Positions 43,501 to 46,500 of a stretch of 64,000 bases of DNA are shown here, in pieces. Source of the DNA: Anolis carolinensis (lineage: Eukaryota); the NCBI RefSeq assembly GCF_035594765.1, contig NC_085847.1, positions 5,828,001 through 5,892,000 of the forward strand. Reading direction: 5' to 3'. Every line of letters begins with the position of its first letter. The stretch's first letter is position 1. A program made the position numbers.

Positions 43501-46500
43501 CCCGGAGAGAGTTGTCCCATACACCGGGCACAAGTGTTGTCCTTTTGGCTAGTGTCTCAAGTCCGATTTGATGCCCACCTTCGGTGCCCGCCGCCCCACC
43601 TTGGTCACAAACAGAGCACAAAACGAAACCGGGCCACCCGCTCCGACGACGGCGCCTGCCCTGGCAATAAAGCTCTATTTTGGTCTTCCTGGCGCAGCAG
43701 CGTGGCGTCCTTCAATGACCTCGGGAAGGAGGGAGGGAGGGGAGGCGGGCGGGCACAACATGGGCAACGCATTTCAGCCCTCAGGGGAAACGGTGTCAGG
43801 CACAATGCCCGTAAAGGTTTCGCTTTGGTGCACCCAGGCTAGTTCTGTTACTATGGCAACCCCAGCATCCCAAGCATCAAAGGCTGGTTGGTGTTTTTAT
43901 TTTATTTTTTTGGACGTCCACTGTATAAATAGGGCATGATGTCACTTGGCTCACTGTTCCGGATTTTGATTTGCGCCGTGCCACAATTGGGGGAAGCGTT
44001 GGCAACCCCTCGGTCGCATTTGTGGTCCAGAGAAGTCCCACTGATCTGAATGGGGTTTCCAAATGGGAGCGGTGAGGTTTAGGACTCGGATTCTGCCAGG
44101 ACAGAGTTTGAATCCTGCTCTTCTCGGCGGTGGAACTCGGAAGAAATCTTGCCCACTTGAGGAACACATTGGCTTTCAAAGGGCGGGCGTTGATGACTCC
44201 AACTCCCAGTGTCCCTCGCTCTCAGGTCTGCAAGCTGCATCTAATCCAGTGGTTCCCAACCTTTGGGGCCTCCAGGTGTTTTGGACTTCAGCTCCCACAC
44301 TTCCTAACAGCTGGGATTTCTGGGAGTTGAAGTCCAAAACACCTGGAGGACCAAAGGTTGGGAACCACTGATGTAGGTCAACCCCGTTAGCCGCCCCGAC
44401 TCCCTTTGGGGAGATGGAAGTGGGGTACAAAATATAATAATAATCATCATCATCATAATAATCCCATACTTTGGGACTCCAATTCCCAGTGAGCCCAATA
44501 GTCAGGGATTCTGGGAAGTGAAATCCCAAACATCTGGAAGGGCAAATGTGGGGCTTTTTTTCCTGTTGGGGCTCCCGTGTCTTTAAGGGAACTTGGACCC
44601 AGCCTTGGCCCATCCCTCCAAGGCCCAGAAGAAAGGGAGTCCTCAATCTCCCATGACTCTTCAGGAGCGCAAAAGGTTAACTGGTCTGGCCAGCTTCCTG
44701 CCAGGGGAAGAAGGCAGCCAGACCGGTTGGTGAGCCACCCCTTTCCTGGAAGAGGAGGAGGAGGAGGAGGAGGAGGAGGAGGAGTTCTTTGCGCCTGCCC
44801 TTCCACGTCTTCCGTCCACAATGTCTCCCGCTGCCTGGGGCTGAAGCAGCTTGGTGTCTTGAGCAGCTGGCACACGTAAGTGGGCACATAGGTGGGCACC
44901 CTTGCATTGGGTTGCCGGTCTGAGCGTTGGACTCCAGGCTCCAACCCTCGCTTGGCCACAAAACCCTCCTCAGGTGGGTGAGCCGCACTCTCTCAGCCTC
45001 AGAGGAAGGCCACCCAAGAAGAGCTTTGGCATCTCAATGCCCGACGGGCAAAGGATGCCCAAGAAGTCTTCCTTGGCTCCGATTCCAGACTGTTGACCCT
45101 GATGGCTGCAGAGTCGACCCACTTCATGCGATGCCTGAGCCAGATCCATCAGGTACTCTACCAGTACCCCATCGTCCCCAGTTCTTGCTTTTCCTTGCCT
45201 TTCACCCAAAGCGTTGACAAGCTGCATTTATTTCATGGTCTAGAGCAGGCACGGGCAAACACAACTGGAGGGCCCAAGTCTGCCCATGCCTGCTCTAGAA
45301 GTCCCTTCTTTCCCTCTTGTAGGTCATCGGGAAGGCCAACGAGATCCTGTCCGGGATCAGCCGACCCTCTGTGTGCAGCGAGGTGCTGGGTTCGACCCCT
45401 GGGATGGCCTATATTTTGGGTACCGCCTGGCATGACATGGGTAGCCCTAGCCTGGTGCCAGGGCCTCTCTGGCGGTGGGTGGCCTTTGGCTTCCATCCCA
45501 GTGGGGAAGGTTGGAGGCACGGCTTCTCCTGCTCCCGCCTTGGGATGCCACGGATGGGGGGCTCCTGGCACCCTGGGCCCAGCTCCAAGCCCTCTTGTCT
45601 CGCCGGCAGGGCTCTCCGAGGTCTACCGGGTCTCCAAGCGCCTGGAGCGTGGGGCCAAGGCTCGGGCGCTGGCGGGGGAACGGCTGGAGCAGGCCCTGCG
45701 CGAAGTGGACTTGGCCTGGAACAACCTCTTGGCCTTCGTGGCCTTTGGACGCGCTGCCTTCCAAACACTGGTAAGGGCGTCCGGTTGGCAGAGAAAGTGG
45801 CCCGGAAGGGGCACACAGTGGCAGTGAACGGCCTGGATTGACTCACCGGCCCAGGGGAGCTGTCCAAAGTCTCAGAAGTGTGGCTTCCTCTGCTTCCATG
45901 TTCCTTTCTAAGGATGGCCAGCTTTTGGAGCCCTCGGTCGGGAGTCCCCCTCCGTGCCCTCCTCCAGACCCCCAAGCCCTCTGTGGGGTTTGTCTAACCG
46001 AGGTCAAGCAGGAGCCCCAGGTAAGTCACCTTTTGCCCAAAACATGCCACTTGGCCATCCCACGGTTGACTTAATAACCTGATTGAGAAATGCCTTGCCT
46101 TCTTTGCCCGGCTCTTCACAGCCTGTTCTTTTTCTCTTTGCCCCGCCAGCTCCATTCGGGCAATGCCGATCCGGTGAGCTACCAGGGCAGCCATTTCCAT
46201 GCCGGCTGTGCCAACTTCTGGCTCAACTGTGTGGATGCCACTCTGCCGTCTCCCAGCACAACACAATCCTCCCTTTGGCCGGATGCCGACAACCCTCCAG
46301 ACATTTTGCGAAGCCCCAGAAGTTGATGAACTGATTATTATGATTTTTGAACACGAAAAGGCTTTTGATATGATGCTGCTCTTTGTTTAAAACGGTTTTC
46401 ATGGAATTATGATTTCAGTGTCATGCTATTTTGTGTCTTTACTTCAATGCCCATCACCCAAGATAGCCAAGGATCAGGGACGATGGGACTTACAGCTCAA

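What the first reader, a model, noticed from the sequence alone, without database searches (positions are those of the whole stretch)
45102..46326. Stand-alone synergin-gamma C-terminal-domain gene with a CxxC...HxxC motif
Seen: five in-phase exons encode a predicted helical region followed by CGVC...HAGC, a likely zinc site. At most about 1.4 kb separates it from the SLC35E4 poly(A) signal, so the ~1100 N-terminal residues of SYNRG (EH domain, AP-1 gamma-ear-binding motifs) cannot be present. Established: SYNRG works with aftiphilin and HEATR5B/p200 in AP-1 trafficking, and its C-terminal domain is poorly characterised. I know of no such gene at human 22q12. Inference: an intron-containing mini-paralogue that could compete with or substitute for SYNRG. 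It is a second C-terminal-domain-only gene in this window.
Basis: partly seen in the sequence, partly recalled or inferred. Interest (0 to 1): 0.68.

Follow-up and report, generated by a model that had tools for sequence, protein, structure and literature searches.

The report
Short synergin-gamma paralogue in anole
A small lizard gene that encodes only the tail domain of the vesicle-trafficking protein synergin gamma is real, very old and already catalogued by automatic annotation, but nobody has studied what it does.

Summary
Five GT-AG exons (45102-46326, + strand, 594 nt) encode 197 residues. Their separate translations tile, letter for letter, a RefSeq protein of Anolis carolinensis named 'synergin gamma isoform X2'. 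The window is therefore green anole, not human.

Residues 9-175 match the last ~170 residues of full-length synergin gamma (950-1676 aa) from frog, fish, lamprey, amphioxus and molluscs. CxxC...HxxC is invariant across both groups. No other part of SYNRG is found anywhere in the 64 kb.

It is one member of a short (139-307 aa) 'synergin gamma-like' family. Named members come from squamates, turtles, amphibians, lungfish, chimaera and sawfish, and none from a bird, mammal, crocodilian or teleost. In a tree this family is a starred clade, sister to vertebrate SYNRG with amphioxus outside. With DUSP18 next door here and DUSP14 beside SYNRG in human 17q12, it looks like an early-vertebrate duplicate.

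The gene model is not new, but two text searches found no paper on it. Function is inferred: a four-helix bundle plus zinc knuckle that probably docks where SYNRG's tail docks, without the AP-1-binding or EH parts.

The parts
45102..45152 (+). Exon 1 (coding part): ATG and 17 codons, first helix of the domain
   Evidence: residues 1-17 of P0006. The frame stays open upstream to 44982 with no further ATG. A possible acceptor lies at 45087-45088, so the exon probably starts upstream as 5' UTR (inference).
45323..45419 (+). Exon 2, 97 nt, residues 18-49 plus the first base of codon 50; holds invariant C35, E37, V38, S41, G44, Y47
   Evidence: tblastn hits of long SYNRG proteins at 45323-45421/45427
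45610..45770 (+). Exon 3, 161 nt, residues 50-103; helices with invariant E53, W86, N88, F92
   Evidence: tblastn hits of long SYNRG proteins
45913..46020 (+). Exon 4, 108 nt, residues 104-139; low-confidence linker and the CGVC knuckle. In-frame, and absent from a predicted 139-aa form in Naja
45982..45993 (+). CGVC, residues 127-130, first half of the putative zinc site
   Evidence: C127 and C130 are present in 28 of 29 short and 13 of 13 long rows and are invariant in all 41 rows of A1
46150..46326 (+). Exon 5, 177 nt, residues 140-197 and TGA; beta-hairpin, HAGCANFWLNCV helix and a poorly conserved tail
   Evidence: (100% identity to RefSeq proteins of A. carolinensis)
46198..46209 (+). 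HAGC, residues 156-159, second half of the putative zinc site
   Evidence: H156 and C159 are present in 28 of 29 short and 13 of 13 long rows and are invariant in A1
43666..43671 (+). AATAAA of the upstream SLC35E-like gene (context: it bounds the gene on the 5' side)
   Evidence: TPT-family exons upstream
47120..47848 (-). Convergent neighbour: DUSP18-like single-exon ORF (context for the duplicate-pair argument)
   Evidence: Pfam DSPc E=5.2e-35. Best solved relatives are DUSP18 at 268.9 bits, DUSP21 at 262.5 and DUSP14 at 216.1, with the next, DUSP28, at 91.3.

Best explanation
Shown: this is an intact, five-exon gene of Anolis carolinensis, annotated in RefSeq. An older model of the same locus is named LOC103280518. 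It encodes a 197-residue protein that is nothing but the synergin-gamma C-terminal domain. It belongs to a short 'synergin gamma-like' family found from cartilaginous fish to lizards. That family split from SYNRG after amphioxus diverged and, under the model used, before lamprey diverged. Predicted: the fold is a four-helix bundle (helices 2-27, 32-40, 42-67, 73-95), a disordered linker, then a CxxC knuckle, a beta-hairpin, and His/Cys at the start of a helix. This is a treble-clef-like single zinc site. Inferred mechanism: in SYNRG this tail is the only conserved globular module besides the EH domain. It lies outside the mapped gamma-adaptin-binding region (aa 518-786). So it most likely docks SYNRG to its partners, plausibly the aftiphilin/HEATR5B(p200) complex. 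The short protein keeps the dock but lacks the EH domain and the AP-1 ear-binding stretch. It would therefore occupy the SYNRG slot, or a diverged version of it, and yield complexes that cannot make SYNRG's other contacts. That makes it a natural competitor or an alternative minimal subunit. My odds: identity and stand-alone status about 0.95; single zinc site about 0.7; docking and competition mechanism about 0.35.
For: Identity: exon 5 is 100% identical to RefSeq 'synergin gamma isoform X2/X3 [Anolis carolinensis]' (4 hits among 11 candidates). All five exon translations tile the 197-aa protein.

Homology: phmmer of orthologue P0007 gave 226 hits at E<=1e-3. Long proteins of 950-1676 aa align by their last ~170 residues to query 9-175. 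Named examples are Bufo synergin gamma, Alosa synergin gamma, Cebus synergin gamma, and lamprey, amphioxus, Lingula and mollusc proteins.

Stand-alone status: no N-terminal SYNRG similarity anywhere in the window. The Met is conserved in 19 of 29 short rows. The shark 228-aa protein aligns from its residue 3 at 45% identity.

Family: 44 hits of 111-356 aa, 41 of them named, all squamate, turtle or amphibian. Chimaera, lungfish, sawfish and more frogs were added.

Tree (44 rows): short clade 100/98*, vertebrate SYNRG clade including lamprey 100/96*, the two together 100/95*, amphioxus outside. An AU test rejects a post-lamprey duplication, p=0.013.

Paired neighbours: a DUSP18-like ORF lies next door. 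DUSP14 and SYNRG lie together within a ~232 kb segment of human 17q12 (passages of PMC13692584).

Fold: AF2 mean pLDDT 81.5, pTM 0.73.

Zinc site: C127, C130, H156 and C159 are invariant in 41 of 41 rows of A1.

The gamma-adaptin binding site maps to aa 518-786 of human gamma-synergin (passage of PMC2169493). [quoted passage not shown]
Against: No result here shows what SYNRG's C-terminal domain binds. Marmorale et al. report that AlphaFold2 gave no high-confidence interface between HEATR5A or HEATR5B and gamma-synergin (passage of PMC10798858).

The short family evolves much faster than SYNRG's own tail. Over the same columns it is 44-58% identical between shark, lungfish or salamander and lizard or shark. 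SYNRG's tail is 85-89% identical between teleost, frog and monkey. That fits a relaxed or changed interface better than strict competition for one conserved surface.

Long SYNRG proteins end in a conserved ...P-x-[DE]-L-L carboxy terminus, which the short family lacks.

No bird, mammal, crocodilian or teleost appears among the named hits. The gene may therefore be dispensable.

No expression data for the anole were seen. No canonical + strand poly(A) signal lies between the stop codon and 47200. The region around the start is not a CpG island (CpG o/e 0.10-0.43 at 44400-45100).

The local Pfam copy gave no hit, either exon by exon or for whole orthologues. The Pfam label rests on the database's precomputed column only.
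Confidence: 0.55

Rival explanations
1. Neofunctionalised paralogue: the short protein kept the fold and the zinc site but now binds a different partner and acts outside the aftiphilin/HEATR5B/AP-1 pathway.
For: It evolves fast compared with SYNRG's tail. The short clade has a long stem branch, 0.56 changes per column. It has lost the conserved ...ELL carboxy terminus. Its C-terminal tails vary between lineages.
Against: 19 columns are invariant across short and long proteins, including surface-type residues in the helices (E37, S41, Y47, E53, W86, N88) and the whole C-A-N-F-W stretch. That suggests a shared ligand or shared architecture.
Confidence: 0.3
2. Not stand-alone: the five exons are the 3' end of a longer transcript whose upstream coding exons were missed. 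An unseen 'isoform X1' could be one such form.
For: The reading frame is open for 40 codons upstream of the ATG, and an AG lies at 45087-45088. Several orthologue models carry 20-110 extra N-terminal residues, and some of these align to 45063-45101. RefSeq calls the 197-aa form 'isoform X2', so an X1 exists that I did not see.
Against: There is only 1,430 nt to the upstream gene's AATAAA. That stretch holds SINE-like inverted repeats and a (GGA)n run. No SYNRG-like similarity occurs anywhere in the 64 kb. The Met is conserved in 19 of 29 short rows from shark to lizard. The N-terminal extensions of other models differ in length, and I did not align them with each other.
Confidence: 0.07
3. Decaying remnant or annotation artefact: a pseudogene-like relic of a duplicated SYNRG 3' end that gene predictors keep calling.
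For: It appears absent from several large vertebrate groups. It evolves fast. No poly(A) signal or CpG island was found. Frame-shifted or intron-retaining alternative models exist for the anole locus (P0005, P0047).
Against: The ORF is intact with four consensus GT-AG introns. The protein is 87% identical (BLASTP) to that of A. sagrei. Every one of the 19 family-invariant residues is kept. The family is retained from chimaera and sawfish to lizards. The AF2 model is confident.
Confidence: 0.03

Closest known systems
Synergin gamma (SYNRG, gamma-synergin, AP1GBP1), C-terminal domain (Pfam PF25999, as labelled in the search database)
   Same: Residues 9-175 align end to end with the last ~170 residues of SYNRG. 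Identity is 37-41% between the anole protein and frog, fish, lamprey, amphioxus or scallop SYNRG. Both share the invariant C35, W86, N88, F92, CxxC, HxxC and ANFW.
   Different: It has no EH domain, no central gamma-ear-binding region and no ~1000-residue N-terminal part (binding region from PMC2169493). It forms a separate clade. It evolves several-fold faster. It lacks the conserved ...ELL carboxy terminus.
CLBA1 relative to aftiphilin
   Same: This is an analogy only. CLBA1 is described as an uncharacterised protein with weak similarity to one region of aftiphilin, predicted to bind HEATR5A and HEATR5B as aftiphilin does (passage of PMC10798858). It is thus a cut-down relative of another subunit of the same complex.
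   Different: It is a different protein family. No link between CLBA1 and this gene was tested. That CLBA1 is much shorter than aftiphilin is my recollection, not from a call.
RING / treble-clef zinc fingers
   Same: A CxxC knuckle, then a beta-hairpin, then His and Cys at the start of a helix. The language-model look-alikes are RING-type and Rubicon-homology clusters at 0.77-0.89 (leads only).
   Different: Only four invariant ligands are present, enough for one zinc, not the eight of a cross-braced RING. No Foldseek match to any solved structure reached E<=1e-3 (0 of 424 matches listed). All atlas scores are under the 0.9 level that the tool itself calls a lead only.

Membership tests
SYNRG C-terminal domain family (PF25999) | Significant full-length sequence match to the C-terminal ~170 residues of bona fide synergin gamma | tested here: met
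   phmmer of orthologue P0007: long proteins at E=1e-29 to 1e-20 aligned over query 9-175, named. tblastn of four long SYNRG proteins hits window exons 2, 3 and 5.
SYNRG C-terminal domain family (PF25999) | Match to the Pfam model itself | tested here: inconclusive
   The database's precomputed column gives PF25999.1 for P0006 and for all 44 hits. Local hmmscan gave 0 families for each exon and 0 for three whole orthologues, so the model seems to be missing from the local copy.
SYNRG C-terminal domain family (PF25999) | Invariant CxxC...HxxC and the W-N-N / C-A-N-F-W signature | tested here: met
   28 of 29 short and 13 of 13 long rows. The two exceptions are truncated or gapped models (Gastrophryne, Pelusios). 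Invariant in 41 of 41 rows of A1.
Synergin gamma proper (orthologue of human SYNRG) | EH domain in the N-terminal part | tested here: not met
   The protein starts at the C-terminal domain. No EH-like hit of Bufo, Hymenochirus, Alosa or Lampetra SYNRG occurs anywhere in the 64 kb.
Synergin gamma proper (orthologue of human SYNRG) | Central gamma-adaptin ear-binding region (aa 518-786 of the human protein) | tested here: not met
   The region is mapped in PMC2169493 (passage). No counterpart exists in a 197-aa protein that aligns only to the last ~170 residues.
Synergin gamma proper (orthologue of human SYNRG) | Falls inside the vertebrate SYNRG clade | tested here: not met
   It sits in the sister clade (short clade 100/98*; SYNRG clade 100/96*). 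RefSeq's name 'synergin gamma isoform X2' for the anole protein is therefore misleading.
Synergin gamma proper (orthologue of human SYNRG) | Subunit of the aftiphilin/p200(HEATR5B)/gamma-synergin complex | not testable with these tools
Short 'synergin gamma-like' orthologue group | One clade of short (139-307 aa) proteins that begin at the domain | tested here: met
   30 rows form one starred clade. The Met at the same column is present in 19 of 29 rows.
Short 'synergin gamma-like' orthologue group | Same exon structure | tested here: met
   The Naja 139-aa form equals the 174-aa form minus residues 104-138. This is exactly the anole exon 4 block, with the same boundaries. Only this one junction pair was tested.
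Short 'synergin gamma-like' orthologue group | Conserved position between SLC35E4 and DUSP18 in other species | not tested
RING-type zinc finger | Eight cross-braced zinc ligands and a RING fold | tested here: not met
   Four invariant ligands only. C166 is present in 27 of 29 short and 11 of 13 long rows. No significant structural match was found.

The most novel reading that the evidence does not exclude
Early vertebrates duplicated the whole HEATR5/aftiphilin/synergin accessory complex. This short protein would be the missing third subunit of a second, minimal complex (HEATR5A with CLBA1 and 'SYNRG-like') that works without direct AP-1 ear binding. On this reading mammals, and probably birds and teleosts, later lost this one subunit. 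The gene would then be a handle on the unknown function of HEATR5A and CLBA1, and on the unknown job of SYNRG's zinc-binding tail.
Probability: 0.12. Interest if true: 0.7.

Novelty: already known. Interest (0 to 1): 0.38.

Why it matters
The C-terminal domain is the best conserved part of synergin gamma: 85-89% identical from teleost to monkey and about 52% from frog to scallop. In the passages and listings I saw, no function is assigned to it. A naturally occurring protein that is only this domain has been kept for the whole of jawed-vertebrate history in some lineages and is apparently missing in others. It is a ready-made tool to ask what the domain binds and whether it holds zinc. It also allows a test of whether removing the AP-1 and EH contacts turns SYNRG into a regulator of the aftiphilin/HEATR5 complex. 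The RefSeq name 'synergin gamma isoform X2' for the anole protein should read 'synergin gamma-like'.

Tried and rejected
1. Pfam exon by exon gave 0 families for four exon translations. Whole orthologues also gave 0, so the local library seems to lack PF25999.

2. A word-index search for longer relatives of P0007 gave 0 of 1312 candidates. The long relatives came only from the exhaustive phmmer run.

3. Solved structures by sequence: the A1 profile hit only EH domains, through the long rows. P0007 alone gave nothing better than E=0.32.

4. Foldseek against the PDB gave 0 matches at E<=1e-3, only generic helix bundles.

5. Protein atlas: Rubicon-homology at 0.89 and RING-type at about 0.8. All are below the level the tool treats as more than a lead. 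I do not file the protein there.

6. Complex prediction with two copies of residues 1-178 gave 'no answer' (score 0.00, controls not run, alignment not used). This is no evidence either way.

7. A weak tblastn hit at 52567-52635 (- strand; E 0.04-0.5) reads ...SCGYFWMACCVGRIPSEG... inside a repetitive stretch with no exon features. I take it as a chance match.

8. Rfam over 43000-48000 gave 0 families.

9. Hirst et al. 2005 (PMC1087257) is not held. I know it only through citations in other papers.

10. The joined five-exon model of the window was not searched, folded or assembled by me. Searches were made exon by exon and then with database proteins that those searches returned.

11. Intron positions of SYNRG itself could not be compared. 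The text of Page et al. 1999 gives no coordinates, and no vertebrate genome is on hand.
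Full report
WHAT THE WINDOW IS. Exon 5 of the finding, translated alone, is 100% identical to two RefSeq proteins of Anolis carolinensis: 'synergin gamma isoform X2' (197 aa, P0006) and 'isoform X3' (175 aa, P0005). The search gave 4 hits among 11 candidates. I take the window for green anole, not human. No human sequence was looked at. Three runs of N (57236-57414, 58168-58296, 62759-62905) lie far from the finding and were left alone.

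THE OBSERVATION. Reading 43500-47500 and a script check give five exons on the + strand: 45102-45152, 45323-45419, 45610-45770, 45913-46020 and 46150-46326. All four introns are GT-AG with pyrimidine-rich acceptors, and the CDS is 594 nt. The five separate translations are found at residues 1-17, 18-49, 51-103, 104-139 and 140-197 of P0006. Residue 50 (Gly) is the codon split G|GG between exons 2 and 3. CGVC is residues 127-130 (45982-45993) and HAGC is residues 156-159 (46198-46209). The only + strand AATAAA between 43000 and 47200 is at 43666, 1,430 nt before the ATG. It follows two exons of a TPT-family, SLC35E-like transporter.

WHAT IT IS. Pfam scans of the single exons gave nothing. Scans of three whole orthologues also gave nothing, so the local library seems to lack the model. 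The search database's own precomputed column gives PF25999.1 for P0006 and all its relatives, and UniRef calls several of them 'Synergin gamma C-terminal domain-containing protein'.

An exhaustive phmmer run with the A. sagrei orthologue (P0007, 203 aa, 87% identical) against 1.84 billion representatives gave 226 hits at E<=1e-3, 96 at E<=1e-10 and 16 at E<=1e-30. After the short relatives come proteins of 950-1676 aa. In each of these the match is query 9-175 against the last ~170 residues. I looked up 30 of the 150 listed hits, and 28 clusters held a named member. The long ones are synergin gamma of Bufo gargarizans, Alosa pseudoharengus and Cebus imitator. Others are an EH-domain protein of Hymenochirus and lamprey, amphioxus, Lingula, scallop, limpet, snail, clam and argonaut proteins, several of them named synergin gamma or EH domain-containing.

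STAND-ALONE OR NOT. Four lines of evidence bear on this.
- tblastn of four full-length SYNRG proteins (Bufo, Hymenochirus, Alosa, Lampetra) against the whole 64 kb hit only exons 2, 3 and 5 of this gene. The one other hit, at E=0.22, I take for chance. Nothing of the ~1000 N-terminal residues is present.
- In an alignment of 29 short and 13 long proteins, the start Met is shared by 19 of 29 short rows, from chimaera to lizard, and by 0 of 13 long rows.
- A 228-aa elephant-shark protein (AFK11164.1 / K4FUI8) is a direct submission rather than a RefSeq model. That this accession series comes from cDNA is my recollection. It aligns from its residue 3 to the anole Met 1, with 45% identity over 193 residues.
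- The frame is open for 40 codons upstream of the ATG without another ATG. There is an AG at 45087-45088 and a consensus donor (gtaagt) at 44876. So a non-coding leader exon is plausible, but that is inference only.

RefSeq's numbering implies an isoform X1 that I did not see. Some orthologue models carry N-terminal extensions, and some of these align to the stretch just before the ATG. I give the 'longer gene' rival 0.07.

THE FAMILY AND ITS AGE. A search for proteins of similar length gave 44 hits among 226 candidates, of which 41 are named. They come from lizards, snakes, an amphisbaenian, geckos, two turtles (Emydura, Pelusios), a salamander, caecilians and frogs. Look-ups added Callorhinchus, Protopterus, Pristis and more frogs. 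Two sturgeon records are flagged as possible contamination by their source. No bird, mammal, crocodilian or teleost is among the named short proteins. This is suggestive of loss but is not proof. The word index is insensitive, and only 30 of the 150 listed phmmer hits (226 in all) were named.

For a tree I used 27 of the 44 hits. I dropped 17 that were second isoforms, fragments or unnamed: P0005, P0008, P0022, P0024, P0026-P0029, P0031, P0033, P0034, P0038, P0039, P0043, P0046-P0048. I added four looked-up short rows and the last 200 residues of 13 long proteins, making 44 rows and 212 columns (IQ-TREE LG+C20).
- 30 short rows form one clade (100/98*).
- Vertebrate SYNRG including lamprey forms the sister clade (100/96*). 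A 495-aa Rhinophrynus model named 'synergin gamma-like' falls there and is a SYNRG fragment.
- The two clades together score 100/95*, and amphioxus lies outside.
- An AU test rejects the tree in which the short family joins jawed-vertebrate SYNRG to the exclusion of lamprey (p=0.013). The caveats are that the group was named after seeing the tree and that the short clade has a long stem (0.56).

NEIGHBOURS. The convergent neighbour at 47120-47848 (- strand) is a dual-specificity phosphatase (DSPc, E=5.2e-35). It is closest to DUSP18 (268.9 bits), DUSP21 (262.5) and DUSP14 (216.1), with the next relative at 91 bits. In human 17q12, DUSP14, SYNRG, DDX52 and HNF1B lie within one ~232 kb segment (passages of PMC13692584). 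A DUSP14-SYNRG pair and a DUSP18-'SYNRG-like' pair are what a block or whole-genome duplication would leave.

The window also holds a GAL3ST-like ORF and a cobalamin-binding (transcobalamin-like) exon. That this matches the human 22q12.2 gene order, and that 17q12 and 22q12 share further paralogue pairs, is my recollection and was not tested.

FOLD AND ZINC SITE. AlphaFold2 on a 41-row alignment (A1, first row P0007) gave mean pLDDT 81.5 and pTM 0.73. It shows helices 2-27, 32-40, 42-67 and 73-95, a low-confidence linker (117-121 under 50), strands 148-150 and 153-155, and a helix 157-167. CxxC (127-130) lies in a loop. H156 ends the hairpin and C159 opens the last helix. That is the order of elements in a treble-clef zinc knuckle, a name I give from general knowledge. 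I could not inspect coordinates.

C127, C130, H156 and C159 are invariant in all 41 rows of A1. They are present in 28 of 29 short and 13 of 13 long rows of the wider alignment, the exceptions being gapped or truncated models. C35 is also invariant. C166 is present in 27 of 29 short and 11 of 13 long rows.

No solved structure resembles the model (0 Foldseek matches at E<=1e-3 among 424 listed). None matches by sequence. Language-model look-alikes (Rubicon-homology 0.89, RING-type about 0.8) are leads only. With four invariant ligands this is not a RING.

HOW IT MOST LIKELY WORKS. From passages I read:
- gamma-synergin binds the gamma-adaptin ear through residues 518-786 (PMC2169493);
- it forms a complex with aftiphilin and p200/HEATR5B (PMC9988951; PMC10798858);
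- how synergin joins that complex is unknown, and AlphaFold2 gave the authors no confident HEATR5-synergin interface (PMC10798858).

SYNRG's tail is extremely conserved: 85-89% identical between teleost, frog and monkey, and 52% between frog and scallop. It lies outside the AP-1-binding stretch. My inference is that it is the docking module, and that the short protein docks likewise while lacking every other contact. That would make it a competitor or a minimal alternative subunit.

Several points count against a simple competition model. The short family is only 44-58% identical over comparable evolutionary distances. It lacks the conserved ...ELL carboxy terminus of SYNRG. It seems to have been lost in several large groups. 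I therefore put the mechanism at about 0.35 and a diverged-partner rival at 0.3.

In Naja a predicted 139-aa form is the 174-aa form minus exactly the exon-4 block that carries CxxC. If that form is real, it would lack the zinc site.

NOVELTY. The exact protein is in RefSeq. An older model of the same locus is named LOC103280518 (P0047). Orthologues are annotated 'synergin gamma-like' in over 40 species, and a Pfam family covers the domain. So the feature is already known to databases. Full-text searches found 0 papers with 'synergin gamma-like' and 0 with 'LOC103280518'. A search for SYNRG, AFTPH, HEATR5B and AlphaFold together also found 0. I saw nothing in print on the short family or on the function of the tail. 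These searches cover open-access text only, and supplements were closed.

WHAT STAYED UNCHECKED.
- Expression in the anole.
- Whether the anole also has full-length SYNRG. I assume so from general knowledge, but it was not retrieved.
- Synteny, and true absence, in other vertebrates. No vertebrate genome collection was on hand, and the closed collections would not have helped.
- SYNRG's own intron positions.
- Any binding partner.
- The human locus.

Noticed in passing
window 47120-47848 (- strand); AATAAA on the - strand at 46926-46931: A single-exon DUSP18-like phosphatase gene is convergent with the finding. The two stop codons are about 790 nt apart, and the short gene has no canonical + strand poly(A) signal in between, so the 3' UTRs may overlap.
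   Followed up: partly
window 16841-18037 (- strand): A long ORF gives a full-length match to galactose-3-O-sulfotransferase (Pfam PF06990, E=1.6e-156), a GAL3ST1-like gene.
   Followed up: no
window 36276-37583 (+ strand): An open frame holds matches to the eukaryotic cobalamin-binding protein family (PF01122, E=3.4e-31, two stretches), probably transcobalamin-like exons upstream of the SLC35E-like gene.
   Followed up: no
window 8347-9531 (+ strand): A 394-aa open frame has a weak zf-RVT match (E=7.9e-4, below Pfam's cut-off), probably a decayed retroelement.
   Followed up: no
window 44269-44349 and 43251-43278: A SINE-like element occurs as an inverted pair just upstream of the gene, with a third copy near the SLC35E-like 3' end: 3 matches of a 28-mer against 0 expected. 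A (GGA)n run lies at about 44754-44785.
   Followed up: partly
window 45131-45390 (alternative model P0005): RefSeq 'isoform X3' (175 aa) starts at an internal ATG in another frame. It regains the domain frame through an alternative donor inside exon 2, so its first 27 or so residues are unrelated to the family. It looks like a minor or spurious model (read).
   Followed up: partly
Related proteins P0017 and P0027 (Naja); 139-aa forms also listed for Podarcis, Sphaerodactylus and Salvator (P0022, P0024, P0029): In Naja the 139-aa form is the 174-aa form minus exactly the exon-4 block, which removes the CxxC half of the zinc site. The other three 139-aa forms have that length but were not aligned.
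   Followed up: partly
Long SYNRG rows of the alignment: All 13 long proteins end in the same short carboxy-terminal motif, proline(s) followed by an acidic or polar residue and Leu-Leu or Leu-Ile at the very end. The short family lacks it. I know of no function for it.
   Followed up: no
   Followed up: no
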